DNA of 63,423 nucleotides, counting the filler, from Squatina squatina (lineage: Eukaryota), in NCBI GenBank assembly GCA_031763465.1. It is 3 parts of 2 records of this genome, joined end to end, with 100 filler letters (N's around TTAATTAATTAA, not from the genome) between each part and the next. Parts side by side here need not be neighbours in the genome. Positions count along the whole stretch, not along the records: positions 1 to 27,221 come from JARFOE010000234.1; 2 more parts are not named here. The stretch is one strand, 5' to 3'. The notes under the pieces were generated by a model, which was not told where the DNA came from, searched no databases, and saw nothing but the letters and a program-made list of their open reading frames with translations. The position numbers and the translations under genes were made by a program. This document shows, one piece after another, positions 6,831-51,800 of this stretch (positions are counted from its first letter, which is position 1; each line of letters begins with the position of its first letter).

Positions 6831-7311
6831 TACATGGAACTCCCTTTCTGACATCCCTGCTGAGATCAGAAACTCAGTATGTAGCTGTAGTGTTGGAGTC
6901 AACATAGTTTCATTAATTTATTACTTAATCATTGTGTTGGAGATTTTCAAAATGGCAGTCAGTCTCTTCTAACGAGAGGTGACAAAAGGATTACATGATG
7001 GAATGGGAAGAAATGAGGTGTAGTGATGTAATGTAATGGGAAGAAATAAAGTACCCTCTGTACATGCATATTAAAACTGCATTTGTTCTCACATATTGTA
7101 CAAGCACAGCAAACTGTATTATCATCTTGCATGCTTACATTTATAAGTTTAGTGTGCAAAGATAGAATACTAAGAGAACTCTTGAGATCAATGTGTGCTT
7201 GTACAATACATTGAGATGCTTATCACAACATATTGAAAATGCCAGCTTTACAAATTCCTTAAATACGGTTTGAAATGTTGTTAAACAAAAAGAAACAAAA
7301 AAGTGACCTAC

Positions 7312-7590
7312 CTTTAATTTGTAAAACAGCTGAAGTAGTCATGTTAAGTTCTTTATTCCAGAACTTGCATAAATACGTATCATTAGTCTCTGCCTTCACT
7401 CTAAGTACACTTCGGATGTTGTACAATCCATCAGTGCCAGTGAAGTGGGTGGTATCTGCTGTTTCGTTGAGGTCCGATCCATTTGCATAATACCAGATAA
7501 CTTCAGCTAAAGGGTATCCTACTGACTGACAAACAAACTCTGACTCTTTCCTTTCCTTTATGTTGAGGGTCTCTATGTATTCATAAGAAG
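7312..7590 (-). CDS. CD274: PD-L1 (B7-H1) IgC exon
   Basis: Phase-1 exon with canonical AG/GT: (A)SYEYIETLNIKERKESEFVCQSVGYPLAEVIWY...DGLYNIRSVLRVKAETNDTYLCKFWNKELNMTTSAVLQIK; CxxxGYPxAEVIW is typical of PD-L1/PD-L2 IgC; in frame with the IgV exon. Confidence 0.88.
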
Positions 7591-7699
7591 CTGTAAAATA
7601 GAACGTCACAGTTTTAGATTTAATCTGGCTGTGGTTTCTAAGCCCTCTAAAGTCCTGCAGTTGCTGTTTTTCTTTCACAGCAAGTTTTAATTAAGGGAA

Positions 7700-7975: not shown

Positions 7976-8371
7976 TGTATAGTTTAAGTTGCTTCTATTT
8001 AAAATGCTACAGAACTTTCTTTCCTTACTGCTATTTTCTCAGTTTTCCACTTGGAGCTTTCACATATTATGCACTAATCCTCCATGAGAGGAAAGACTGG
8101 GAACCTGTTCCCCAACTTCCACTTTACAGCTGATTGTCAGGACGCAAATATTGCCCAAGGTGGTGGACATTCATCCTTCCCTGTGTGGAAGCCTTTGGCC
8201 TCTGTTCTGTGCCGCCATGTGAACACACATTTAAGATCAAGAACTCATCGGGCAGCAGGTTACATATGCAAACTCACATTCTCTTGGTATATTCCGATGG
8301 AAACAATTCAAATCTAATTGGAACCAATCAATCAGCTACTGGAGAAGATACAAGAAGAAAACCTTGCCCAC

Positions 8372-8731
8372 CTGTGACTTTCAGTGCAGTCTCTTTATAA
8401 TCCACTCCATTGAGATCGATAACACAGCGGTAGGTCCCCGCATCAGTAACTTTAATCTGGTTAATCTCCAGCACCGCACGTCCACTGTGCAGTTCATCTA
8501 GTAACAGGAACACTCTTTCTCTGTACTCCAGTGGCTGGTCCTGAAGGGCTGCTTTCCCATTGAACAATTTATAAACTAATTGAGAAGATCCATTGTCCAG
8601 AATGTGATGCCAGTACACCTTTAGCTGGTTTGCATTGAAGTTGGATTCAACTGTAAATCTACATTCCATAGTAATGTTATTCCCATAGGATGCAGTGTAG
8701 GACGACCTGGGAGCAGTGACCATAAAAAGAG
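8372..8731 (-). CDS. CD274: PD-L1 (B7-H1) IgV exon
   Basis: 360-nt phase-1 exon: (A)LFMVTAPRSSYTASYGNNITMECRF...VYW...YRERVFLLLDELHSGRAVLEINQIKVTDAGTYRCVIDLNGVDYKETALKVT; matches PD-L1 YGSNMTIEC / DAGVYRC...ADYK; syntenic with JAK2 and RLN. Confidence 0.9.
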
Positions 8732-8782
8732 CTGAAACGACAGAAGGTGGAGTTACTCAACTGTTTTAGATATAGCCATCTA

Positions 8783-9768: not shown

Positions 9769-10091
9769 TCATGGTTGGCATGTTCTTTCAATATCCCAAT
9801 GGTTACAGCCCCTTTTGCAGCATTTGTCTGAAAGTGAAAGGGTTCTTGGTGTCAATTTTGCATGGATGAAATCTTTTGGACGAGCGGGCTGCATCACGCT
9901 GTCTCTCTCAGTCTCAGAGACATACTCATTAAAATCATCTGACATCTGCTCATGTGTGTAGTCATTGTAAAACGGTTGTTGTCCATAATACGACTCAAGC
10001 TGTTCAATCCCGTCGTTGTCAAACCTCCTCTGAACCTTCTTCATGTTCGTCTCCTTGAAATAGTCATTATCATCTGAGGCCTGGAAGGGAA
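9769..10091 (-). CDS. Relaxin/insulin-like peptide, copy A, exon 2 (C-peptide plus A chain)
   Basis: Phase-1 acceptor, then PFQASDDNDYFKETNMKKVQRRFDNDGIEQLESYYGQQPFYNDY...AKLTPRTLSLSDKCCKRGCNHWDIERTCQP*; exact CC-X3-C-X8-C A-chain motif; lies in the CD274-JAK2 interval (RLN locus). Confidence 0.9.
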
Positions 10092-10860
10092 CTGGAACAC
10101 AAATAAAACTCCATTTGTGAACACTGAAGGACTATTGAGATTGATTTGATGATATTTCCCTCATTCTGTGATTCTAGGATTCTGTCCCAACTACACACTG
10201 CTGCTCTCTATCTCAGAAAGTGGGATGTTCTGGACCCTCCATTGCACTCTGTGATTGCTCAGACACAGCACTTCAAATGTACAGAGAAAGGGGCACTAAT
10301 GGTTGGCAACTCTGCCAATTAGGTGACCCATATCTGGTTAAACATTTGAACATGGAATTTAAAATAAAAACCAATGGCATGTGCTATATTGCAGAAGTGG
10401 TAAAAAAATGTGGGTAAAATATCAGTCAATGGATCAGCATTTTAATNNNNNNNNNNNNNNNNNNNNNNNNNNNNNNNNNNNNNNNNNNNNNNNNNNNNNN
10501 NNNNNNNNNNNNNNNNNNNNNNNNNNNNNNNNNNNNNNNNNNNNNNGTAATGGTTCAAACATAAATGCAATGCTAATATAAAGTATTAGAAATCACCAGC
10601 AACAACACAGTGACTTTTCAGGGGTCCCCAATAATGCAGCTTAACAGCAGGTTCATCCACTAGTGGTCTACATTAGAGCTGTTCGATATCAATTACACAC
10701 ACCAACTGGTTAGGTTAATCACTAATCACAGAAAGGGTTATAGTTATGTTTAGTTAGGACATTACGGATTTGTGTTGATGGATAAATGTCCACATCATCA
10801 GAAAAATGAACAAGAGTTAATGAAAAACAGTGATGAGTCACAGTAAGGGAGCAAAACTGC

Positions 10861-10868
10861 TATAAAAG
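10861..10868 (+). promoter_or_regulatory. Candidate TATA box of relaxin-like copy B
   Basis: TATAAAAG 240 nt upstream of the signal-peptide ATG at 11101. Confidence 0.45.
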
Positions 10869-11100
10869 GAGAAGGAACAGATGATCGTAATAGTCAGGGG
10901 CAGAGAAGAAATAGCACGATACTGAGAATCAGTAGAGAAATCCAGTCAAGTAGGAGTTTGAGACAGGAATTTTTTTTTAGATCAGCCGAAAAAAACAGGT
11001 TCAATTTGTGCAGTGGAAGCATTAGAGAGTGAGTGGAGAAATTGGCACTGGGTTCCCATACAGAGTCAGAGTGGGCGAAGCTGATCACTTGTGAGCTGAA

Positions 11101-11263
11101 ATGGAGAGTCTGGTGTTCATCTTGGCAATCGGGCTGTTGCTGTTCTCCTTTCCAGGCTCTGCAAGGCCTGATGATGAGGTGATAAAGCTCTGCGGTCGAG
11201 CCTTCGTAGAAAAACTTATCCAACTCTGCATAAATCTGAAAGCTCGCATTCACCATCCATATG
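11101..11263 (+). CDS. Relaxin/insulin-like peptide, copy B, exon 1 (signal peptide plus B chain)
   Basis: MESLVFILAIGLLLFSFPGSARPDDEVIKLCGRAFVEKLIQLCINLKARIHHPY, then a phase-1 donor G|gtaagt; hydrophobic signal and IKLCGR-X9-C B-chain motif; too short for the ORF track. Confidence 0.9.
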
Positions 11264-11751
11264 GTAAGTATTGAAATCCCTTCTATTGACCAGGATTGAG
11301 AAATATTAATTGCCTGATTTTCATTATACTTCAAACTGTTCGATATGTTGCTCTGAGTTGATGTGAAAATTAAAATTCATCTATAATAAATCTCGAGAGA
11401 GAGCAGTCCTCTCAGGAAAGTGTCAGGTGCAATAAAACTGTGCACCTCGCGACACCTGGACACCCAAGGGACCTGGGATTAGAGCTTTTATAAATATAAA
11501 TAAACATTAAGTAGTTGATATGTAAACAGCTCGGGGAATGTTTACACAACAGCATCAACTCAACAGTCACTTTGTGTGACTTCTCACTGAGAATACATTG
11601 ATCCTCTGTCAATCCTCAATCTGGTGAACAAATTTACACTTACAGTTCTGTNNNNNNNNNNNNNNNNNNNNNNNNNNNNNNNNNNNNNNNNNNNNNNNNN
11701 NNNNNNNNNNNNNNNNNNNNNNNNNNNNNNNNNNNNNNNNNNNNNNNNNNN

Positions 11752-11850
11752 ACGTTGTGACAGCCCCATAACCGGCTTTTGTGATGTCACCCCGGGTGCG
11801 TAGGAACATCATTCCCACCCGGAGAGATCGCAATTTCAGCACCATCAACT
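11752..11850 (-). mobile_element. MITE end fragment (same family as 13836-13989)
   Basis: Reverse complement of 13836-13925 (cagccccataaccggcttttg..atgtc.cccgggtgc...ggagagat.gcaatttc). Confidence 0.6.
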
Positions 11851-12302
11851 GGTAGTCACAACAGGAGCATAGGTTGATGAATCAGCTCCACAATCTTGTA
11901 GCTATGCCTCCAACCCATAGTCCTTTCAAGTGAGGCTCCCATCTGGATGACAAAATGCTGATCCATTGACAGGTATTTGAACCAAATTTTTGCCACTTCT
12001 GCAATGCAGAACACATCATTTGGTTTCCATATTAAGTTCAATGTTGAAATGTTTTACCAGATATGAGTCAACTTTTTGGCAGAGTTGTCAACCATTCCTT
12101 TCCCTGTAATGATACATTTGAAATGCTGTGTCAGATCAATCATAAAGTGCAATGAAGGGTCCAGAACATCCGACTTTCTGAGATAGAGAGCAGCAGTGTG
12201 TAGTTGGGACAGAGTCATAGAATCATAGAATGAGGGAAAGAACATCAAATCAATCTCAATAATCCTTCAGTGTTCACAGATGGAGTTGTATTTCTGTTCC
12301 AG

Positions 12303-12532
12303 ATCTCTCCCAGACCTCAGATTATAATGACTACTTCAAGGACATGGACATGAACAAGATTCGAAGGATATATGACAATGACAGGATTCAGCAGCTTGAG
12401 ATGTATTATGGACAGCAACCATTTTACAATGAGTACACCCAGTATGGGCAGACGCCAGATGATTTTAATAAGTATGCCTCTGAGACTGAGGGAGACAGCG
12501 TGATTCGTCCAAGAATGTTGAATGGAAAATAA
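12303..12532 (+). pseudogene. Relaxin-like exon 2 paralog with C-peptide only; stops before any A chain (truncated gene or pseudogene)
   Basis: Phase-1 acceptor, then (D)LSQTSDYNDYFKDMDMNKIRRIYDNDRIQQLEMYYGQQPFYNEYTQYGQTPDDFNKYASETEGDSVIRPRMLNGK*; aligns to copy A up to DSV..RP; no CC-X3-C-X8-C in any downstream frame I read. Confidence 0.75.
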
Positions 12533-12857
12533 ATTACAATTTCGACAACTCTCGCTGTGCATCCACTCACCAACTGGATCAATTTTGTGCCACCTCTGTC
12601 CTCACGCAGTTCCTTTGGGGTGAAATTCCTTTCACAAAAGATAGGAAACTGCCCTTTTGCTCTACAATTAACAATCATCAAATTAAACCTCAGTCTCAAA
12701 GTCATACATTCCTCCAATGTTGTTAACGGTCCAATAATTATGGAAAAGAACAGGCAATCTTTCACTTTCTGCGAAAAAGAATTTTTGGTCTACCCGTGTC
12801 TGGCTGCATCCTGTAGTACCTGAAATTTCAAAAAAATCAAGGAAAACAAAAGAGAAT

Positions 12858-13577
12858 GGGGACAAAATTCCCTTATTTTCTCACCTCACTAGCACCTCCG
12901 GGGCGAAAAAGAAAAAAAATGTCACCGGGAGCAGCTATCTCGCCTCCCGGGAAATTCCCCAGGAGGTCCCTGAGGCACAAATTCCTTTGCGCCTCGCCCG
13001 TGGACTTTCACAATGGGTCGGCACGCAATGGGCGTCAACCCCTTACCACACTGCCGTGAACCCTTACCATCCCCGTTGCATCCCGTGGGTGAAATTCCCC
13101 ACGGGACACAATGGCCGCTCCAGTCGTGTGGCCCCTTAGAGGAGAGGGGCAGATTGCCGACGATGCCTAGTTTTAATTGTCGGCCGACTCTGTGGTCGGC
13201 TAACTGATGGCAGCCCGCGCACCGACAGGGCCACCATCCACTTACCCGGCATGCCGACTAGCATGCCAGGCTGATGGCCCGGTTGCCGGGGCCCCTGGTG
13301 GCCCAGTGGTGGGCCGTGGGGCGCCATCAGCATGGCCGGCGACCCTTCCGTTTAAGGGAGGCCTGGCCGCACTCCTGACGTCAGCGTGCTGCCGTGCCAG
13401 TGACATCCCTGGCCGGCCGTCCCAGTTCCTGCCGGGAGCGAGGGCGACATCGCTGTGCCTCGCTCCTGCCGTGGAATGCTGAATTCTGCGGTCGAAGTTG
13501 GGTACAGGAGCCTGCGAGAAAAATGCCCTTCCCACCTGCCTCCACCCCGTAGGCGCCCGGGCCCAATTTGTGTGCCC
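12858..13577 (-). mobile_element. GC-rich Harbinger-like MITE
   Basis: ggggacaaaatt ... aatttgtgtgccc ends; internal sequence is a reverse-complement relative of the element at 53503-54088. Confidence 0.6.
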
Positions 13578-13835
13578 TTGATTTCTAGAACACAATGCTG
13601 TACCAAATGGTTCCTTTTTTCGCTAGGCCATTGATTGAGCTTATTTACAGGTTCGGTGAACTTTCACTTTTTATCAACAGTTGGACTTGTGTGCACAGTT
13701 CCTGTTCAAGGGAGCCATAAGATTGGAATTTAACTTTACAAAGTTAAATTCTCCTCCTTTGCGCCCTACCTCAGATGTACAAGTGTATTCCATTCCATTT
13801 ACTGGAGCTGTACTTGGGTAAGGAGAGGATATAAT

Positions 13836-13989
13836 GGCCCCGAAATTGTAATCTCTCCGGGTGGGACCGATTTCCCAGGCACCCGGGGAGACATCGCAAA
13901 AGCCGGTTATGGGGCTGTTAATCGTAAGCCCGTATAACCGGCATTTGCGATCTGTCCAGAAACTGTCCAGATTGCTTAGAACGGTCAAA
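13836..13989 (+). mobile_element. MITE end fragment
   Basis: ggccccgaaatt terminus; shares sequence with 11752-11850 and a gcgatctgtccaga motif with 22429-22614. Confidence 0.55.
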
Positions 13990-14089
13990 NNNNNNNNNNN
14001 NNNNNNNNNNNNNNNNNNNNNNNNNNNNNNNNNNNNNNNNNNNNNNNNNNNNNNNNNNNNNNNNNNNNNNNNNNNNNNNNNNNNNNNNN

Positions 14090-14134
14090 GATGGTGAGTA
14101 TTGAAATCCCTTCTATTGACTAGGGTTGAGAAAT
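14090..14134 (+). other. 3' end of another relaxin-like exon 1 plus donor and intron start (copy C; rest lies in the gap)
   Basis: gatg|gtgagtattgaaatcccttctattgactagggttgagaaat versus copy B tatg|gtaagtattgaaatcccttctattgaccaggattgagaaat (11260-11304); the sequences diverge after that. Confidence 0.7.
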
Positions 14135-14744
14135 AGTCATTATTCAGTAACAAGATGAGTGTTAGGTGTCATTCCTATTTAAATGTGATGTGATTTTATT
14201 GATCATTGGGCCAGGAATACAGTGATGATATTAGCTTCATTATCACTAATGAATAGTCTGCTCATATACATGTGGGGCTGGCCCAAGAAAAGCCACCTGG
14301 AGTCTGAAGAATATAAAATGTTAGACTTTTTTTAATGGGTTAATAAACTTCCCAATGGCAAAGTGGATAAATACAGGACCAAACCACACAGACCAGAAGA
14401 TTCCAGGTTCAATCTTAGTCAGTGTTGAGTTAGTTGAACTCAGCTAGTTAGTGAGTCACAATTGGCCTCAGCAAGCTTGAGAAAGGGAGGGAAATAAATC
14501 AGACAGTTGCTGTCCTGACCATTGTCCATCTCCTGTTGAGCCTGTGCATGTCTCAAATGAGGACATGATGGGATTTTCTTTGCATCCACCCCAGTTACTG
14601 CCACTTCCTGGGGTTGCCTTGTAGTGGCCTCCTCTCCGTCCAATNNNNNNNNNNNNNNNNNNNNNNNNNNNNNNNNNNNNNNNNNNNNNNNNNNNNNNNN
14701 NNNNNNNNNNNNNNNNNNNNNNNNNNNNNNNNNNNNNNNNNNNN

Positions 14745-14786: not shown

Positions 14787-15668
14787 CAGACTTGCATTTA
14801 TATGTTCGATCAGTAGAGGAGGGGGAAAGGAATAAAAGGATATGCTGATCGGGCGAGATAAAGCAAGGTGGCAGGAGGCTCATGTGGAGCATAACCACCG
14901 GCATAGACCAGTTGGGCTGAATGGCTTCTTTCTGTGTGTGATGTAAATTTTATGTAGTATTAATACAGCCCAAACTCATTTCTCATAGTGACTCTTACAG
15001 CCAGCAGTGAGCAGACTGACTGGCTCAGATGAATGTAATGAGAATCTCCTCCCTTTGTCAGCTGTAAGTTCATGCATGAATTAAGCTGTACGCCCTGGAA
15101 ACTACTGCAATCTCGAAAGGACAATAAGAAGAATATTTGAAACATTAAAAGGGAAGAGAATCAATTAGCATATGAAAAATAATAGCAGCTAACAAATATC
15201 CGCTTTCAAAATACAGACAATACAGATTACTCTCTCCAAACATAATTTCTGCAATTCAAATGAGTTGAACGATTTGGGACAACACTACGGAGAGAAAGAC
15301 AGCAATCTGAAATATATCTGGTGCAGCCACTCCGAGCCTCTGTGCGTCACCTCACTAGCTACAGTGCTGCTCTTCACATTCCAATAGCGGAGAAATGCCA
15401 TTTTATTTCACTTGCTGCATACAAGTTGATGACTCCCTGTAAACCCCAATAAGGTTGTACAAGTCACACCATTATGCACTTCTATAATGTCTATGTCTTC
15501 TACTATAATACATCGCTGCACATTATAGGAGTTTTTAACTAAATGGCAACAATAACCACAGGGGTGTTTCTGAGCTTTTGATTGATAAATAATTACTTCA
15601 AAGAATACTTGAACTAACTGCACACTGTTTTTATAACTGCATTTAACCCATTTTGCAAACTACAGCTA

Positions 15669-15869
<201 letters not shown>

Positions 15870-16046
15870 TTATTGAAGAGAAATAGCAGAAAACCAGTTG
15901 GCATTTAAATGAGCGATACTGCGAAAACTACCAAAACCCACCAATTAGACAAATATAAGAACGCACTATAATAAATAGTCAGGGCCTGCAGTGAATATCC
16001 TCTATACGCAATATAGCAAGATTCGTGAACTCCAAACCATATTTCA

Positions 16047-16223
<177 letters not shown>

Positions 16224-16380
16224 TCAGACAGTCACAAAAACATAACATATTCAACCATCACAACCTGAGCTATTCTGCTATCTTGCCCAAACTTAAAATG
16301 GATCCGTGTGGTTCCGTGCACAGTGGTGCTTCAACATGCTGTGTAAACAAGTGATAGGACTTGAGCTTGTACTGGTAACT

Positions 16381-16665
16381 TCCTGAACTCAATGGTGTCA
16401 GTGATGTGCATTCCCTGAACTCGATAGTGTCAGTGTTTTCCATTCCTGAACTCGATGGTGTCAGTGCTGTGCGTTTGCTGAACTCAATATTATCAGTGCT
16501 CATCATTCCCTAAACTCTACATTGTCAGTGCTGTGCATTCCATGAACTCGATAGTGTCAGTGCTGTGTTTTCCATGAACTCAGTATTGTCAGTGTTGTGA
16601 GTTCCGTGAACTCAATAGTGTCACTGTTGTGCATTCTCTGAAGTTGATAGTGTCAGTTCTGTGTG
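16381..16665. repeat. About 32-bp minisatellite in a JAK2 intron, about 9 copies, running into a gap
   Basis: Unit approximately cctgaactcgatagtgtcagtgctgtgcattc; spacing 31-32 nt. Confidence 0.85.
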
Positions 16666-16765
16666 NNNNNNNNNNNNNNNNNNNNNNNNNNNNNNNNNNN
16701 NNNNNNNNNNNNNNNNNNNNNNNNNNNNNNNNNNNNNNNNNNNNNNNNNNNNNNNNNNNNNNNNN

Positions 16766-16914
<149 letters not shown>

Positions 16915-17369
16915 TTACAGACGACAAGCAACAAATATTTACTGATAACAGAATATAAAACTAAAATTACATTAATCACAAAACATTACAACACAACCGC
17001 TAAGAGACGGTAAAAAGCATGGGCTTTCTGATTACTGGGGAACAAATTTGAACACATGGACTATTGACGATTGGTTTAACCATAGTATTTGAATAAAGCA
17101 AAATCTCTCACATACAAATAGGTTATTTTGACTTCTGCATGAAGTTAAAGATACCTAAAAATGCTGCCTCTTTAATACCTTCCTATGCCTTGGGCCCCAT
17201 TCCAATAGAGACCATATTCAATTTCAGGAGTTCTCCTCTTATCTCTGGCCAACACTTCACATAGGTGCTTCCTTTGCTGAATAATCAGAGAGATATCTTG
17301 TGATGCTCCAGTCAAAGAGAATACTGACCTACATTATTCACAAGATAATTACAGATAAGGAAGGCTATT

Positions 17370-17571
17370 TCGCTCATCTTAATTCATCTATCCAGAGAGA
17401 TCCTTGGGTCCCGTCTATTGCAGAATCCAGTTGTTTCTTAAATGATTCCAGAGCTTTTGTCTCCAACACTCTATCCAGAAGTTTTATCCATGCATTGATC
17501 ACATTGTGTAAGATTAAATTCCCATTATGAATCCTAAAATTACCGTTTACTACCTTAAACCCCTGTTGTCT
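17370..17571 (-). mobile_element. CR1-like LINE 3' fragment
   Basis: HNVINAWIKLLDRVLETKALESFKKQLDSAI is a degenerate version of the CR1 ORF2 C-terminus. Confidence 0.6.
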
Positions 17572-17841
17572 NNNNNNNNNNNNNNNNNNNNNNNNNNNNN
17601 NNNNNNNNNNNNNNNNNNNNNNNNNNNNNNNNNNNNNNNNNNNNNNNNNNNNNNNNNNNNNNNNNNNNNNNCTTTGAGCAGGTCCTCGTGGAGTCACTTG
17701 TGTCAGCATGAGGAAACTGCCAAATAAACATAACTACAAGAACTGTAGTTAAATCCAATTTTGAAGTTTGGCAGTTTCCTATGGAAGACACAGCTTGCTC
17801 AACTTGTCAGGATCTTGTGGAGGAAGGGAAGGAAAACCACA

Positions 17842-18469
17842 GAGGCAATTTCAACCTTTTCCGCCCGGAGGGCAGTTAAAATTGTCCGAGAAGACTTATC
17901 CACTGACATCCCATTCCCTTCGCCATAGACTTCAATTTTAACCAGCTCTGCTGAGCAGGCAGGAATGGGCTTCTTTAAATATGCAGATCGGGCTTTGATG
18001 ATGTCATCAGGGCCCGACTGCTATTTTAACTCATGGCCTGATTTGGGAATCCGTCGTGGTTTCCTCTGCCAGGTGAAACCAGCAGGATAAAGAGTCGGAG
18101 CCAGAAGAGGCCCACACAGGGGTAAGTTCTTAAACTTTCCTTGTAGGGCCAGGAAGAGCAGGAGTGCTCCCCCGGGCCCCAAAAAGGAATGTTTAGACAT
18201 CCCCTGTCCCGGGCTCCCCCTTCCTGATCGCAAGGCCCTGTCGGAACCCCCTCACTGCGACTTACCTGAGTGCCAGGAAACATTCCTTTGGTTCCCCGCC
18301 GGTGGCCTCATGCCACCCAGCATTCCTCTGCCACCCACCACTTTCGGGCAGGCAACTGACCAGGAACAAGCAGATGAGGCCCCGTGAGTTACAAATCACA
18401 CTGCCGAAGCAAGGACCGTTTGCTACTCGCCTCGGCTCCCCTGTCCACTTCGAGTTAAAACTGGGGCTC
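17842..18469. mobile_element. GC-rich non-autonomous DNA element (relatives at about 51020-51541 and 56715-56945)
   Basis: Inverted ends caatttcaac...gttaaaactg; shared motif gggccaggaagagcaggagtgct (cf. 51331-51355); boundaries approximate. Confidence 0.5.
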
Positions 18470-18637
18470 ACACCTCTGAATCTGTGCACAAGTCAGAAGA
18501 ACATCTCCTTGGGCCAGAATGTCTGCATAGTGCCAATCAATGAGTAATAAAAACAGTAGAATTTGGAGCCAGTAACTGTCCAACCATTACATTTAAATCT
18601 AAAAGGACTGACTATTTTTGGTTAATGGAAACATCAC

Positions 18638-18824
<187 letters not shown>

Positions 18825-19760
18825 CTAAATAGAAATCAGAGGACAGCTTAAGAAAATACATTCCTCAACTGCTATGGATGTCAATCTTAGGCATCAATCT
18901 GAAGCTAGCATCTTTTCTTCCTCACAATTATTCTATACAATGGAAATGTTGGACTATCTACCTTTAGATATTGTTGTCACTGATCTAAATATTGCCAATG
19001 TTACACTGGGAAACATCGCCTGGGGATACTGTTTCTTTATAAAATTCCCGCTGTTCTGAGCCTCAGTTTTAGCTTTTTGACAAGAGGAGTCAGCACTGAG
19101 GCTCCAAGCACAACAAAGGGGAGGGAAGGAAGGAGTAAGGGAGGGAGGAAAGGAAAAGGAAAAGGGAAAAAAAGGAAAGAAAGATCAATCTTTTGGAAAC
19201 AGTCACACTGACCAAATTATTACTAAATTATGACTACACCAAGCAACTTCTGTTACAAGCGTTCTCTTAAGAATATGCCCCATCATTGAGTTAAATCCCC
19301 AAGAATAACAGCACGTTGTCATGCAGTCTGTCCACATCTCACTGAAAGCCCTGACGGCTGTGGTCTGATCTATGAGATCAAGGCATCTAAGTGGGAAGGA
19401 GCATCTGACTTATGACAAGAGGTTCAGGAGCCTGATATTGGTTACTTTGGAGATGAGTAGGTGCAGGAGAGCCACCATTCATGATTCTTACTAGAGTAGA
19501 TTGAGATTGTCACAAACTCCAGAACCAGGGGGACAAGGGCGTAGAAGATGGAAGGTACACAGACAGTTTAGATTCAACTACTTTAAGGAGAGGGTGGCGA
19601 ATACATGGAATGGACTGCCCAAGGAGACTGTGAAGACAGACAGTGCGTAAGTATTGAATGNNNNNNNNNNNNNNNNNNNNNNNNNNNNNNNNNNNNNNNN
19701 NNNNNNNNNNNNNNNNNNNNNNNNNNNNNNNNNNNNNNNNNNNNNNNNNNNNNNNNNNNN

Positions 19761-20105
19761 CTATCCGCCTCACTGGTGACTACATTTCCGAGTTTCATGT
19801 CAGTCGAAAACGTTGAAATTATGCTCTGCATGCCCAAGTCCATATTATACATCAAAATGAGCAATGGTCCCAACATCAACCCCTGGGGAACATCACTGTA
19901 CATCTCCCTCCAGTTTGAAAAGCAACAGTTCACCACTACTCTCTGCTTTCTGTCCCTTAGCCAGTTTTGCATCCATGCAGCCACAGCCCCTTTAATCCCA
20001 TCGGCTTTAATTTTGCTAACAAGTCTATTATATAATTTATCATACGCCTTTTGAAAGTCCATATACAAATCAATCACACGGCCCTCAAAACCCTCTCCAT
20101 TCATG
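19761..20105 (-). mobile_element. CR1 LINE reverse transcriptase fragment
   Basis: YMDFQKAYDKL...WMQNWLRDRKQRVVVN...VPQGLMLGPLLILMY...FSTDMKL. Confidence 0.9.
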
Positions 20106-20378
20106 TAGCCTCTTTCTTGATGGTTAAGTTAAATTGTTCCTTCTTCATCTGTATCTATCTTGTGATTACTAGCACCAAATTCCATACAGCACCTTTTTGG
20201 TTATATGCCCACACTGATTGCAAAGGGTCCGCTGTGGTATATTACTTCTACGTTAAATCCCTGTGGGATCACAGCTTCTTCTTATCCACAGATTATCTAT
20301 CTCTAGTCTCCAGACTGAGAAAATAGTTGCCAGGTTAATGGAATGGGAAGAAAGTGATTACAAATATTTGCACTCTCA

Positions 20379-20525
<147 letters not shown>

Positions 20526-21499
20526 CTATGAAAAAAATGCTACAGTTAGATATTCTCTCTTCATCGGGCTTCAATGTACCAGTAACATGTCCATGCCTCT
20601 CCTTTGAGGAAGTGCTGGCCTCTCCTAGGCATTTCCTCCCACAGGATGGCAGAGCTTGATAACTTGTCTTGTAAAGTGTGACTCGCAGACTTTCATCCTA
20701 GCATTTGCAACACAATCCGCTTAAGCTCCTTTATCTTTCTTTTCATAAATGTCATTCACAGTTTTCAACTGCAGTGCTTGGATTTTAACACCTAAAATCT
20801 GTTGGAAGTAAATTTTTATACAGTTCTAACTATGCAGAATTAGAGGAACACACAGAACACATTCCAGGGTTAATGCTGCAATCCCAGAGAAGATGTCGAC
20901 CTCAAAGAAGGGAGGGTTGGAAATGAGGCTACAACATTATCAATTCTTTCAACTGCGAATGTCGATCTCCACGAGGGGCATGGGATCACAAAACTAATCC
21001 TTTCAACCCTTGCAACATTCTCTAAAATGAAGCTCCAATATCTATCCACCAATCATTGAAGTGTAAAGAATGGCTCGGTAAATGCTAATGGACCAAAATA
21101 AACCATTACCAGCTGCATACCGCTGTGTACTCAGCTGTATCCCACCGGGGGAGGGAGACATCGGGGGCTGGTGGAAAAGGAGGAAATCAGGGACCGGGGA
21201 GAGATCGGGGCGCAGGCATTGACAGTTTGGAGGTCAGGGATCTCGGGATCGGGAATGGCAGCAATCGGGATGGTGATTATAAGTACTTTCTTTTTTTAAA
21301 ATGTAGGTGATGTTTAGGATTGGTTTTCCCAGAAGCAGGTATTCGGTCCCTTATTTGCATATACAAAGGGAAAAACACCTGTTTCAGGCATGGGTAAAGG
21401 ACACCTCGTTTGTTGGTACCTAATATGGCGAGCGGTGTTGCCGCGATTCCTGCCTGCCATTTTGGAGCCTTCAGAGAGCAGGTTTTCCAGATGCAATTA

Positions 21500-21690
21500 A
21501 ACCCTCACAATTCCTACTCTGCACTAAATACAAGTGTGCTGAAAGAATTCCACCACAAGCTGCACAATAATCTACCTTCCGGCAGACTGCTCCCTCAAGT
21601 TCACCAGCTGACTGATGACCTCCCAAACCTGCGACCTCTACCACCTAGAAGGAGAAGGGCAGCAGGCACATGGGAACACCACCACTTCCA
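21500..21690 (+). mobile_element. LINE 3' region fragment (same family as 42370-42671)
   Basis: LPNLRPLPPRRRRAAGTWEHHH versus LPNPRPLPSRRTRAADAWEHHH at 42.6 kb. Confidence 0.7.
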
Positions 21691-21861
21691 NNNNNNNNNN
21701 NNNNNNNNNNNNNNNNNNNNNNNNNNNNNNNNNNNNNNNNNNNNNNNNNNNNNNNNNNNNNNNNNNNNNNNNNNNNNNNNNNNNNNNNNNCCCCAAGATC
21801 TCCTATATTGTGACAGTTTGGCTTATTGACTATTCCCGTAACGGTTGGAGGTTTCAACCTA

Positions 21862-22026
<165 letters not shown>

Positions 22027-38872: not shown

Positions 38873-39538
38873 ATATTTGTTGTAACAGTGCGGAGTTTTT
38901 GTTTATGCAGGGAGGTGCAGGTCATATATTTTCAAATTTTAAAAATGCATTCCTAAGAGATATTTTAAGAAGATGATTCTCGTGATCAAAAATCTATTCT
39001 TTCAAACCATTCAAAAAATTAACAGATTTCAATTAAGCCCAAGGAGAGTGAATGAATTATCAAATTTCCATACAACTCCTATATGTTTTGATCCAGTACA
39101 GTGCTCTGTAGCTGTTACCACTCATAGAATAGTCAGCTGGAGTAACTGGAGCACAATTGCAGATATCAGATAATTCATGGTTTAGAAAGTCATCTGAACC
39201 CCAAGATTGTGTTACAACCTGACAATGCAGGTGATCAAACATACAACCTCTGCTTTTCCATGTGTGATATGTTCTTCTTACACTGACTCCAAGTTATACC
39301 ATTCAGATATACTGTTCTGCTGTTGTCCCCACCAAGCTGTACTGTTCAGTCATAGCACACTAAAATAAAATGATAAAACAGCAGCAAGAGGGAGACTTAC
39401 ACTTGTTAAGGGATATCTAGGTCTCACACCCTTTAGTATTAGTGTTGTAATTATTTATATCTGGTAACTGAGGAGATGACATGAATCACTTTTCTAAATA
39501 TCAGCAAAGTAATTGCAATTTCTGTTTGTCTTTTCCAG

Positions 39539-48810: not shown

Positions 48811-51800
48811 NNNNNNNNNNNNNNNNNNNNNNNNNNNNNNNNNNNNNNNNNNNNNNNNNNNNNNNNNNNNNNNNNNNNNNNNNNNNNNNNNNNNNNNNNN
48901 NNNNNNNNNNCTGTTCTTTTGTATAATGTATACATTTCTAAAACATTTTAAAAATACTGCTTACTTACACGAATCAATATAATTCTCATGCTGTTTAACA
49001 GTTATTGTGAGATAGATATATGTAGGTTACTAGTCACATGATACACCTTGATGTGATCAAGTGTAAGTTACTGATTATGTGACTGATTAAAAAGGCTGAC
49101 TTTTGCAATAAAATGCCAGGCTATTTACTGTATTGTAATTTAAAATTTAGGAAACAATTATCACCATGCCTTTATACAGAATGTAAGAGCAGCAAAGTGG
49201 GTCTGAAATATAAGCAACTTAGTTCTCTAAATTTATGTATAATTTAAGGTAAGATCTTTGTAAAATAAGCTCTGTATCTATTTATTAGAAAGTCATGTTG
49301 AAACGTGCAATATACCTGTTTAACTGTACATTATGTTGTCCAGAAAATACTATTTTTGGGGACTTTTATTTTCTTATTACCAAAGCTTTTTTTGTTGCTT
49401 ACTTTTGCAAGAGAATTTGAATTTCTCATTTTAACAGCACTTCCATTGAATACTTTTTCACTTATTTGTTTTACGCTGCACCACTAGGGGGTGTCATCCT
49501 CAGTCATTGGGATGCGCAAAATAAGTGATACATTCCCAATGTGTTGNNNNNNNNNNNNNNNNNNNNNNNNNNNNNNNNNNNNNNNNNNNNNNNNNNNNNN
49601 NNNNNNNNNNNNNNNNNNNNNNNNNNNNNNNNNNNNNNNNNNNNNNNNNNNNNNNNNNNNNNNNNNNNNNNNNNNNNNNNNNNNNNNNNNNNNNNNNNNN
49701 NNNNNNNNNNNNNNNNNNNNNNNNNNNNNNNNNNNNNNNNNNNNNNNNNNNNNNNNNNNNNNNNNNNNNNNNNNNNNNNNNNNNNNNNNNNNNNNNNNNN
49801 NNNNNNNNNNNNNNNNNNNNNNNNNNNNNNNNNNNNNNNNNNNNNNNNNNNNNNNNNNNNNNNNNNNNNNNNNNNNNNNNNNNNNNNNNNAGTTGGGTCA
49901 CGGGTGTAGTTCTAGACGCAGAGATCATTGTGAATGTACATTTAGTTTTATCCTGTGACAAGGACCCAGTGGCATACCTTCTAATTGTAATGTTGCTGGA
50001 TAAAGTCTGATGTTACTTACCAGAAGCCTATTTATGTAATTTCTTTTGTACCAACTCTACTTAAGTACAAATATTTATTGAATTTTCAGCATTTCCTTTG
50101 TTCTCTGATTTACCCAAAACTGGTATTTAAACACAGATCTGAGTGTTATTTTGATGCTCAGTCAGCTTTCTTCCTGTCACTTGATTCTTCAAAGCACAAA
50201 ATCCCAACCCATCCATATCCACAAAAACTCATTTTAACACTAAAAAATGGGTGGATTGAGGTCAGGAGTGAGGTGGAACAAGGAGGCGGGTTGACAATTT
50301 AAATATTTTAATAAGGTTGTCAGCCTCATGTGAGCTTAGATGGGTCAAAAAGATCTTATCTCATCCTCGACTTTTCCTATGTATTTATATGGTGCATTTA
50401 ATAACAATGCTGCTGCCCTCTGCAGTAAAGTCACACTGTAGCAGGAGCCAAGCGATGGTTGGCTCCTATTACCCTGATGGTTCCTGATATCAGTTGCACT
50501 GCTGTGGGCTGGTACTGAGAATTGTATCAGGCATCTCCCCATATTGGGAGAGGAAAGGGAAAAATGATGAAATTAGTCTGGGCCTCTATGTTTAGAGCTC
50601 CCTCACACTGAGGACAGTTGTCCTGCAGCGGTGCATGTCCTGGTGAGGAGGGGGAAGGAATAAATGGTAGTAGAAAATGAGCAGAGAAAGCCAGTACTTG
50701 TCTTCAGAGGAAGGTACATTGGGGGTGAAATTCANNNNNNNNNNNNNNNNNNNNNNNNNNNNNNNNNNNNNNNNNNNNTTAATTAATTAANNNNNNNNNN
50801 NNNNNNNNNNNNNNNNNNNNNNNNNNNNNNNNNNTATTTTCCAATCCATTTTAGAGTTCATGGAATGGAAACACCACTGGTGGGAATAACAGGAGCTGCA
50901 GCAGAGAAAGGGGAACAAGTGGGTAAATTTACCAATTCTGCACACCCAGCAGCGAGCAAGAAGTGCAGGGTAGTGAATTAGCGCAAAGATGTTGTAGCCC
51001 TAGCTCTGACCCACTTAACCCCCAAAAATGAGTGGGTTTGTGTCAGGTGTAAGTAAAAATGTAAGAAATTTCAAATCTGAACCCAACCCACTTCAAACCC
51101 GCCCATTTCTGGTTTTAACGGAGGCGTGATGGGGACGGGCAACCAACCCGCTCCCTGGAGGTGCGTCGTTCATTTAAATATTTTAATGAAGCTGCTTGTC
51201 ACTAATTTTTTCTCTCTGTTCCAGCTTTAACCCTGCCCAGCCAAGTTTCCCAGGCCTCGGGAATACTGGCAGCTGAAGGGAGGCAAAGACTGCTGCATGG
51301 AATAGGTAAGTGCTTTTCCAGCACTGCTTTTGGGCCAGGAGGAACAGGAGTGCTTCCTCCCAACCCACCAAGCAGATCTGTTAACATCTCCCACGATTGG
51401 ATCCACCCCCCACCGACGCGATCTGATGCCCTCGTGATATCTACCCCAGCCAACAATCTTCTCCCCACCACCCTCCCCCCAAATGGCCTCCATGGGCCCC
51501 TTCAACAATCTTCTCCCCTCCTCCCCAATCTCTGGACCCTCNNNNNNNNNNNNNNNNNNNNNNNNNNNNNNNNNNNNNNNNNNNNNNNNNNNNNNNNNNN
51601 NNNNNNNNNNNNNNNNNNNNNNNNNNNNNNNNNNNNNNNNNCTGATCTGAGTGAGATCAACCTGTTCACCGTGTGATTGTGGTTTTATTTGCCCTCTGAA
51701 TCAATGGTACATGTCATTTTTTGAAGGGCGTCAGCAGTGATGCTGCTGTCTTTTACTAATGGAATTGCTGGATTTATTTTGTAAAAAATTCTAATTTAAA

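What the first reader, a model, noticed from the sequence alone, without database searches (positions are those of the whole stretch)
9769..14134. Locally expanded cluster of divergent relaxin/insulin-like hormone genes at the shark CD274-JAK2 (RLN) locus
Seen: four gene pieces within 4.4 kb of scaffold, namely two paralogous exon 2s (minus 9769-10091, plus 12303-12532), one complete exon 1 (11101-11263) and the donor end of a second exon 1 (14090-14134). That is at least two genes, and three if contig order and orientation are right. Known: this interval carries RLN1/RLN2/INSL4/INSL6 in humans, an expansion regarded as mammalian, while non-mammalian vertebrates usually have a single rln here. 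Recalled shark relaxins have CGRGFIRAIIFACGGSR-type B chains, which these copies do not match. Inference: an independent elasmobranch expansion has produced an uncharacterised family of secreted peptide hormones, perhaps reproductive (a possible parallel to placental INSL4 or testicular INSL6).
Basis: partly seen in the sequence, partly recalled or inferred. Interest (0 to 1): 0.88.

Follow-up and report, generated by a model that had tools for sequence, protein, structure and literature searches.

The report
Shark relaxin gene cluster, motif lost
Between PD-L1 and JAK2 this shark scaffold holds pieces of at least two duplicated relaxin-like genes (one truncated, and the one readable receptor-contacting chain lacks relaxin's binding motif), and similar copies occur in seven other sharks and rays, so they likely form an old hormone-gene cluster that arose independently of the mammalian INSL4/INSL6 cluster and is predicted to serve reproduction.

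Summary
The four pieces are real and sit on four separate contigs between CD274 and JAK2 exons. They show two paralogues (84% identical, so not alleles), not three.

The main inference holds. An HMMER scan found 15 relatives (E≤0.001), and every named one is from a shark or ray. In 7 of 7 species a copy shares JAK2's chromosome or scaffold; in bamboo shark two copies are 3-4 locus tags from JAK2. Four species carry several copies. Catshark copies do not form one clade (AU p=0.0007), so the expansion predates splits among shark orders.

All 11 scored non-Heptranchias relatives and the window's copy lack the RxxxRxxI/V motif. One Heptranchias copy keeps it, which ties the family to canonical relaxin. 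Expression, receptor and reproductive role are untested, and dN/dS between the window's copies (0.64, CI 0.27-2.0) shows no constraint.

I found no paper describing this expansion; a motif-less stingray peptide is a precedent. This scan earlier noted a similar cluster in a chimaera (e1-7932161, unchecked).

The parts
7262..7690 (-). CD274/PD-L1-like Ig C-domain exon (ORF limits); flanking marker
   Evidence: Pfam C2-set_3 E 1.4e-08
8331..8756 (-). CD274/PD-L1-like Ig V-domain exon (ORF limits); flanking marker
   Evidence: phmmer to PD-L1 structures E 1.5e-22; Pfam V-set
9769..10091 (-). Exon 2, copy A: C peptide plus complete A chain (Cys core 9822-9778) and stop; no dibasic site before the A chain
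   Evidence: 15 HMMER relatives
10092..10443 (-). 3' end of the intron before exon 2A, duplicated with copy B (85% identical to 11952-12302)
10861..10866 (+). TATAAA 240 nt upstream of the exon-1 ATG; candidate promoter element only
   Evidence: one of two TATAAA between 10547 and 11100; function untested
11101..11263 (+). Exon 1: signal-peptide-like N-terminus, B chain (Cys core 11191-11229, R-x3-E-x2-I in place of R-x3-R-x2-I/V), phase-1 donor
   Evidence: 32/54 identical to whale shark prorelaxin-like XP_048451220.1
11952..12302 (+). 3' end of the intron before exon 2B
12303..12532 (+). Exon 2, copy B: C peptide only; 9-nt deletion, similarity lost at about 12515, stop before the A chain (truncated, likely pseudogene)
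14090..14141 (+). Stub of a second exon 1: last 4 exonic bases, GT donor at 14094 and intron start
   Evidence: 46/51 nt identical to 11261-11311, E 3e-13
15720..21987 (-). Six JAK2 exons (15720-15833, 16104-16217, 16768-16890, 18642-18821, 20382-20525, 21862-21987); flanking marker

Best explanation
These are pieces of two duplicated relaxin-family genes between CD274 and JAK2, one with a complete A chain and one truncated before it, and they likely belong to an old tandem cluster derived from the shark relaxin (rln) gene whose intact copies are predicted to be secreted reproductive-tract peptides that no longer use relaxin's receptor-binding motif. SHOWN: two paralogous exon 2s and two exon-1 ends; the six-cysteine insulin frame spread over exon 1 and exon 2A; no RxxxRxxI/V motif (second Arg is Glu); no dibasic site at either chain junction; multi-copy relatives in other sharks and rays on JAK2's chromosome; one relative with the canonical motif and an alignable C peptide. 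INFERRED, with odds: the cluster arose by repeated tandem duplication and loss (birth and death) of rln, starting before the shark orders split and independently of mammalian INSL4/INSL6/RLN1 (0.85). This species has at least one intact gene, exon 2A plus one of the two exon 1s (0.65). Its product is a secreted, disulfide-bonded insulin-fold peptide, possibly left partly uncleaved as a pro-form (0.4). It does not activate RXFP1 through the classical arginine cassette (0.7). It is made in gonad or reproductive ducts and glands and acts locally or in seminal or uterine fluid (0.5). The two copies in the window are one later duplication within this lineage, one product of which is decaying.
For: Copies differ by 14.3% in intron and 16.4% in exon, too much for alleles; the only non-tandem duplicate of 120 nt or more at E≤1e-10 in the window is this pair. 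15 HMMER hits at E≤0.001; the 13 representatives with a species name, and the named member of a 14th cluster, are all elasmobranch. 16 of the 22 proteins retrieved lie on a contig of the same length as that species' JAK2 contig, covering 7 of 7 named species. Chiloscyllium chiPu_0003997 and _0003998 share a 5.03-Mb scaffold with JAK2, chiPu_0004001. Adjacent identifiers: XP_072373717/718, scyTo_0006113/6114, Heptranchias XP_067838387-396. Cross-order pairs with starred support: catshark+basking shark 100/99 and catshark+whale shark 96/96; catshark monophyly rejected, p-AU 0.00066. Heptranchias XP_067838387 has the full motif, and the C peptide of its cluster-mate XP_067838389 is 37/62 identical to exon 2A. 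The family profile's best PDB matches are relaxin-3 B and relaxin A chains. Teleosts have a single rln at this locus (PMC2805637, passages). The mammalian locus has a complex duplication history, and INSL4 dates to the placental ancestor (PMC3971578, introduction). Elasmobranch relaxins were isolated from reproductive organs, and a male stingray peptide lacks the motif (PMC551602, passages).
Against: No expression data. dN/dS between 2A and 2B is 0.64 (bootstrap 0.27-2.0), and nonsynonymous divergence equals intron divergence (p=0.89); this fits one dead copy but shows no constraint on either. Contig order puts the complete exon 1 before the truncated exon 2B, so an intact gene is not shown as one unit. 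No piece is joined to CD274 or JAK2 by continuous sequence. A shared 100-275 Mb chromosome is not adjacency: only the bamboo shark tags, and weakly the catshark accessions 335/336 against JAK2 352-356, speak to that. Three catshark models are on older scaffolds that do not hold JAK2, and three Logan records are on short contigs (6 of 22). The trees have no RLN3/INSL3/INSL5 outgroup, most deep nodes are unresolved, and neither window exon falls in a starred group. Monophyly of the two bamboo shark copies (p=0.14) and of the three batoid copies (p=0.074) was not rejected. The fold search on the whale shark relative was weak (best Z 3.1).
Confidence: 0.7

Rival explanations
1. The cluster is real, but both copies seen here are decaying: the complete exon 1 belongs to the truncated gene, and exon 2A is an orphan or recently relaxed copy. 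Function would rest with a canonical rln missing from this assembly.
For: Contig order joins exon 1 to 2B; 2B has no A chain; dN/dS interval includes 1 and exon divergence is not below intron divergence; no dibasic sites; damaged-looking models in catshark (scyTo_0006114 with a broken A chain; XP_072373335 with an unrelated N-terminus).
Against: Exon 1 and exon 2A keep ATG, splice sites, frame and all six cysteines. Exon 1 shares its B chain and following residues with whale shark and catshark models (32/54 and 28/54 identical). All 15 full-length relatives aligned keep the four A-chain cysteines and the first B-chain cysteine. 4 of 16 relatives also lack a dibasic site before the A chain.
Confidence: 0.15
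2. The intact copies are still ligands of the known relaxin-family receptors: they activate a co-evolved RXFP1, RXFP2 or RXFP2-like paralogue, or bind without activating and act as antagonists of canonical relaxin.
For: The first Arg and the aliphatic residue of the motif survive in the window's copy (R..E..I) and in several relatives. INSL3 signals through RXFP2 with a different set of B-chain residues (PMC11122137, passages). An RXFP2-like clade exists in vertebrates (PMC3310001, passage).
Against: The motif is described as required for relaxin activity (PMC551602, background). The second Arg is acidic in the window's copy and in three relatives. Non-cysteine identity among 11 divergent copies is only 31% (B core) and 22% (A core) (the B figure includes one row read in the wrong register), which argues against one shared, conserved receptor surface. 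Mammalian INSL4 and INSL6 have no known receptor (PMC9580368, passage).
Confidence: 0.25
3. The pieces come from elsewhere in the genome (RLN3, INSL3 or INSL5 loci, or scattered copies) and were stacked here by reference-guided scaffolding.
For: The scaffold is gap-riddled and compressed: CD274, JAK2, SH3GL2 and ADAMTSL1 exons lie within 41 kb, and only about 267 of 1128 JAK2 residues are present. Exon 2A is inverted relative to exon 1.
Against: In independent assemblies of 7 of 7 species the relatives share JAK2's chromosome or scaffold, and are near-adjacent by locus tag in bamboo shark. The INSL3 B-chain consensus reported in PMC11122137 is not matched.
Confidence: 0.07
4. One gene, with the second copies being alleles or assembly duplicates.
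For: Two exon 1s and two exon 2s on separate short contigs could in principle be two haplotypes.
Against: 14-16% divergence with indels and a structural break; the two exon-1 introns lose similarity after about 50 nt; no other duplicated contig in the window.
Confidence: 0.02

Closest known systems
Mammalian RFLB cluster (RLN1, RLN2, INSL4, INSL6 beside JAK2)
   Same: Same locus (CD274 on one side, JAK2 on the other); tandem duplicates of relaxin; fast-diverging copies; repeated gain and loss (PMC3971578 introduction; PMC551602 passages).
   Different: Separate origin: no mammalian or bony-fish protein among the 15 hits, the mammalian duplications date to mammals, and teleosts keep one rln. 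The shark copies share a C peptide that aligns across orders. No expression or receptor data exist here.
Atlantic stingray male relaxin-like peptide (Bullesbach, Schwabe and Lacy 1997; seen only as cited in PMC551602)
   Same: Elasmobranch relaxin-like molecule from a male whose B chain lacks the relaxin motif; reported glycosylated (title of the cited paper).
   Different: Known as a single peptide; neither the paper nor its sequence was available, so membership of this cluster is untested. A motif-less Hypanus sabinus model (LOC132396322) is on JAK2's chromosome. The window's exon 1 and exon 2A have no N-glycosylation sequon.
Canonical non-mammalian rln and relaxin-3-like peptides (teleost rln; shark and skate gonadal relaxins; Heptranchias 'relaxin-3-like' models)
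   Same: Cysteine frame, precursor layout and locus. Heptranchias copies have a C peptide homologous to exon 2A and lie on JAK2's chromosome.
   Different: They keep R-x3-R/K-x2-I/V and a dibasic site before the A chain; the window's copy has neither.
Automatic database models in sharks and rays ('uncharacterized', 'prorelaxin-like', 'insulin-like domain-containing')
   Same: These are the relatives found; nearest are XP_048451220.1 and scyTo_0006113 for exon 1, XP_072373717/718 and chiPu_0003998 for exon 2A.
   Different: Annotated one by one, not recognised as a cluster or family in any paper found. The window's genes are only 42-59% identical to the nearest of them.

Membership tests
Insulin/IGF/relaxin superfamily | Six invariant cysteines (B chain two, A chain four) | tested here: met
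   Exon 1 C-x11-C and exon 2A CC-x3-C-x8-C, on separate contigs; copy 2B has no A-chain cysteines
Insulin/IGF/relaxin superfamily | Signal peptide-B-C-A precursor | tested here: met
   Hydrophobic N-terminus (9-residue hydropathy up to 3.2; no dedicated signal-peptide predictor was run); matching phase-1 donor and acceptors; full-length relatives show the same layout
Insulin/IGF/relaxin superfamily | Pfam PF00049 above its curated cut-off | tested here: inconclusive
   Window exons alone 13.2 and 16.7 bits, cut-off 23; full-length whale shark relative 25.9 bits; 12 of 14 alignment members match at E≤1
Insulin/IGF/relaxin superfamily | Insulin fold | tested here: inconclusive
   Model of the whale shark relative, not of the window's protein: B and A helices at pLDDT 74-83; IGF chains at ranks 1, 3 and 5 but Z only 2.8-3.1
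Functional relaxin (RXFP1 agonist) | B-chain motif R-x-x-x-R-x-x-I/V | tested here: not met
   Window R-x3-E-x2-I. Full motif in 1 of 16 relatives, R..K..V in 4, absent in the other 11 (XP_072373717 read from the alignment because the script took the wrong cysteine; the Hypanus register is uncertain)
Functional relaxin (RXFP1 agonist) | Convertase sites that release the C peptide | tested here: inconclusive
   No dibasic pair at either junction in the window's exons; present before the A chain in 12 of 16 relatives; monobasic cleavage cannot be excluded
Functional relaxin (RXFP1 agonist) | Receptor activation or bioassay | not testable with these tools
   Needs synthetic peptide and cloned receptors
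RLN locus (RFLB) genes | Synteny with JAK2 and CD274 | tested here: met
   In the window across gaps; JAK2's chromosome or scaffold in 7 of 7 other species; tags 3997/3998 against 4001 in bamboo shark. PLGRKT was not searched with a query
RLN locus (RFLB) genes | Grouping with RLN rather than RLN3, INSL3 or INSL5 in a tree | not tested
   No outgroup sequences of those genes were fetched; trees hold only the cluster's relatives
INSL4 / INSL6 orthologues | Descent from the mammalian duplications | tested here: inconclusive
   No mammalian protein among 15 hits; the literature dates these genes to mammals (PMC3971578, PMC551602), so orthology is very unlikely, but no tree tested it
INSL3 | B-chain consensus ending RVCGR, reported for all vertebrates examined in PMC11122137 | tested here: not met
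   Window B chain ends QLCI; the locus is also different

The most novel reading that the evidence does not exclude
Cartilaginous fishes carry a previously unrecognised, ancient family of several relaxin-derived secreted peptides at the RLN locus. It arose with internal fertilisation before sharks, rays and perhaps chimaeras split, diversifies on its receptor-facing surface, includes the orphan stingray male peptide, and acts in the reproductive tract through receptors other than RXFP1: a full, independent replay of the mammalian INSL4/INSL6 story.
Probability: 0.35. Interest if true: 0.8.

Novelty: new variant of a known kind. Interest (0 to 1): 0.62.

Why it matters
The relaxin-locus cluster is described as mammal-specific (PMC551602) and teleosts have one copy (PMC2805637). 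A second, probably older expansion in sharks and rays, again shedding the receptor-binding motif, makes this locus a repeated source of new hormones in two lineages with internal fertilisation. It supplies candidate genes for a motif-less stingray peptide known since 1997, a set of natural variants for receptor-pairing work that bears on the still-orphan INSL4 and INSL6, and possible markers of reproductive state in elasmobranchs. The window itself is a poor specimen (fragmented, one copy truncated); chromosome-level genomes are the place to do the work.

Tried and rejected
1. No whole genome is held for this window, so copies outside the window could not be counted.
2. The look-up of sequencing runs: no run was listed and no RNA holder was listed. 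This is no evidence on expression; no reads could be laid.
3. Word-index searches found nothing for exon 2A or exon 1 (20 candidates, none at E≤10), although that collection holds shark proteins. The genes are too divergent for it; the full HMMER scan did find them.
4. A possible third A-chain remnant at minus 15240-15345 scored 52 against a maximum of 42 in 200 shuffles with exon 2A as query. It had no nucleotide support and was not reported by the family A-chain profile. Rejected as probable chance.
5. The idea that the JAK2 exons are a decayed duplicate (APE read as ALE): ALE is in all 7 cartilaginous-fish JAK2 queries (seen for six in the alignments or C-terminal prints; P0029 included). 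Rejected.
6. A displaced A chain after exon 2B: none above shuffles in five stretch-strand tests.
7. Assigning exon 1 and exon 2A to different paralogue groups: exon 2A is 42-46% identical to five relatives alike. Unresolved.
8. Mature chains no more conserved than the C peptide (31%, 22%, 29%) hints at diversifying selection, but the hits were retrieved with a C-peptide-weighted profile, so it was not relied on.
9. Fold search weak. ESM Atlas gave only insulin/relaxin-family look-alikes.
10. Literature: ten full-text searches listed no paper on a chondrichthyan rln expansion. The Yegorov, Bogerd and Good 2014 review (recalled; the DOI I tried was from memory) and the 1997 stingray paper are not held and could change the novelty. 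The catshark genome paper's supplement could not be read; the supplement of PMC10015161 had no hits.
11. Complex prediction was not used: B-A pairing would pass by likeness to solved relaxins, and no shark receptor could be supplied.


Full report
OBSERVATION. The window is a compressed scaffold of 40 contigs (median 1447 nt) separated mostly by 100-N gaps. It holds CD274/PD-L1 exons, six JAK2 exons covering about 267 of 1128 residues in the right order, then SH3GL2-like and ADAMTSL1 exons. I infer reference-guided scaffolding of a partial assembly. Order and orientation of contigs are therefore weak evidence, and missing genes mean nothing. The JAK2 exons differ least from sawshark (15 of 267 residues), then Heterodontus (19) and Heptranchias (20), against 33-39 for batoids and 37 for chimaera (three of the 23 rows were partial proteins and are not comparable). 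The animal is a shark, probably squalomorph (inference).

THE FOUR PIECES. Exon 1 (+11101-11263) has ATG, a hydrophobic N-terminus, a B chain with C-x11-C and a phase-1 donor. Exon 2A (-9769-10091) has a phase-1 acceptor, an acidic, tyrosine-rich C peptide and a complete A chain. Exon 2B (+12303-12532) is 84% identical to 2A over 555 nt, intron included, but after a 9-nt deletion similarity ends near 12515 and the frame stops with no A chain. No displaced A chain was found nearby. The 14090 piece shows four exonic bases and an intron start 46/51 identical to that of exon 1. Profiles built only from other species' relatives recover exon 1 (E 2.5e-21) and the 2A A chain (E 3.3e-11) and nothing else of note. 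Two exon 1s and two exon 2s give two genes. Divergence of 14.3% in intron and 16.4% in exon excludes alleles. A third gene is not shown, nor is it known which exon 1 belongs to the complete exon 2.

RELATIVES. Word-index searches failed, but an HMMER scan of 1.84 billion representatives with a 2A+2B profile gave 15 hits at E≤0.001. Look-ups named 13 representatives, all elasmobranch, and added 7 cluster members, 22 proteins in all. Cloudy catshark has six distinct models (three in a chromosome-level assembly, three in an older one). Bamboo shark has two, little skate two, sevengill shark Heptranchias five near-identical records, and whale shark, basking shark and Atlantic stingray one gene each (the stingray with two isoforms). 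Three records are unnamed Logan contigs. The library shows one protein per 50% cluster, so these are lower bounds. No chimaera, bony-fish or tetrapod protein was named among the hits.

SYNTENY ELSEWHERE. A search with a window JAK2 exon and a cluster look-up gave each species' JAK2 contig. In 7 of 7 named species at least one relative lies on a contig of identical length; 16 of 22 proteins do. The other six are three older-assembly catshark models on scaffolds without JAK2 and the three Logan records. In bamboo shark, chiPu_0003997 and _0003998 share a 5.03-Mb scaffold with JAK2, chiPu_0004001. For the other six species the evidence is chromosome-level only.

AGE AND ORIGIN. A tree of 14 relatives (three near-identical Heptranchias records, the stingray's short isoform, the broken catshark model and the Logan fragments left out) pairs one catshark copy with basking shark (100/99) and another with whale shark (96/96). 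Holding the five catshark copies together is rejected (p-AU 0.00066; I had seen the exon trees before naming the group). The same test did not reject monophyly for the two bamboo shark copies (0.14) or three batoid copies (0.074). At least two paralogue lineages therefore predate splits among galeomorph orders. The window's exon 1 is closest to the whale shark/catshark pair (32/54, 28/54), which would push one lineage back to the root of sharks, but tree support for that grouping is weak (64/26). The window's 2A and 2B are each other's nearest rows, a later duplication. Heptranchias shows a recent burst of near-canonical copies; one has the full motif, and a cluster-mate's C peptide is 37/62 identical to exon 2A. 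That links the motif-less copies to canonical relaxin at this locus. No tree with RLN3, INSL3 or INSL5 was built.

ANATOMY AND MECHANISM. The cysteine frame is kept across 15 full-length relatives, the family profile best matches relaxin-3 B and relaxin A chains, and a model of the whale shark relative has the expected B and A helices, though the fold search was weak. The R-x3-R-x2-I/V motif, described as required for relaxin activity (PMC551602), is complete in 1 of 16 relatives, conservatively changed in the four other Heptranchias records, and absent in all 11 others and in the window, where the second arginine is glutamate. The window's exons also lack dibasic sites at both junctions, as do 4 of 16 relatives before the A chain. 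I therefore read the intact copies as secreted insulin-fold peptides that have left the classical RXFP1 cassette and may stay partly unprocessed. A reproductive-tract role is inferred from three things: gonadal relaxins in sharks and skate, a motif-less peptide from male stingray (both as cited in PMC551602 and PMC2805637), and the placental and testicular mammalian analogues. Nothing here tests expression or receptor. Against function in this species: dN/dS between 2A and 2B is 0.64 (0.27-2.0), and nonsynonymous change equals intron change. That is expected if one copy is dead, but it shows no constraint on the other.

COMPARISON WITH WHAT IS KNOWN. It works like the mammalian RFLB cluster: same locus, tandem turnover, fast-diverging copies. 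It is not shown to be, and is unlikely to be, INSL4 or INSL6. It fails the motif test for a functional relaxin and does not match the INSL3 consensus. What I saw of each paper: PMC551602, abstract, background section and passages; PMC3971578, introduction; PMC2805637, PMC3310001, PMC9580368, PMC11122137, PMC12702675 and PMC10208646, passages only; PMC10015161, supplement search only; PMC11979771, listing only. Ten searches found no description of a chondrichthyan expansion, but two key papers and one supplement were unavailable, and subscription journals are mostly not held. I did not check it. If right, the expansion is chondrichthyan-wide or happened more than once, and the scan has met this kind of cluster before on other DNA.

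VERDICT. Observation partly confirmed (two genes, one truncated). Interpretation partly supported: the expansion is well backed, the function is not tested. New variant of a known kind; interest 0.62.

Noticed in passing
window 15720-15833 (-) and 16768-16890 (-): JAK2 exons carry changes at positions conserved in the other sharks compared: GQTD for GCPD/GCHD and R for E in the penultimate kinase exon (6-12 differences in 38 residues against cartilaginous-fish JAK2s, versus 1-3 in the exon before), and VSPE for VPPE in the pseudokinase. The last JAK2 exon was not found. Lineage divergence, error or a partial duplicate.
   Followed up: partly
window 16104-16217 (-) and relatives: The kinase APE motif of JAK2 reads ALE in the window and in the cartilaginous-fish JAK2 proteins compared, but APE in coelacanth and mammal.
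   Followed up: partly
window 15240-15345 (-): A-chain-like string with one cysteine replaced, behind a good splice acceptor; significant against exon 2A at peptide level only, not seen by the family profile. Probably chance.
   Followed up: yes
P0005 (S. torazame XP_072373718.1): One model has three B-chain-like cysteine pairs in tandem before a single C peptide and A chain; internal duplication or a merged gene model.
   Followed up: no
P0008 (Leucoraja LOC129695362): Skate relative with a C peptide expanded by about four tandem repeats rich in dibasic sites and tyrosines; could release several small peptides.
   Followed up: no
P0015, P0019-P0022 (Heptranchias XP_067838387-396): Five near-identical 'relaxin-3-like' records on JAK2's chromosome: probably a recent amplification of canonical rln, misnamed as relaxin-3; the second Arg is Lys in four.
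   Followed up: partly
exon 2A C peptide, window 9890-10089 (-): Acidic, tyrosine-rich C peptide (17 D/E and 6 Y in 80 residues) that aligns across shark orders, although relaxin C peptides are usually unalignable (PMC551602). Possible tyrosine sulfation sites or a function of its own (inference).
   Followed up: partly
window 27222-27321 and 50735-50834: Two gaps contain the 12-mer TTAATTAATTAA between 44-N runs, an artificial all-frame stop linker from the scaffolding step.
   Followed up: no
window 38399-38873 and 16380-16664: Tandem repeat arrays giving long low-complexity ORFs; not genes as far as seen.
   Followed up: no
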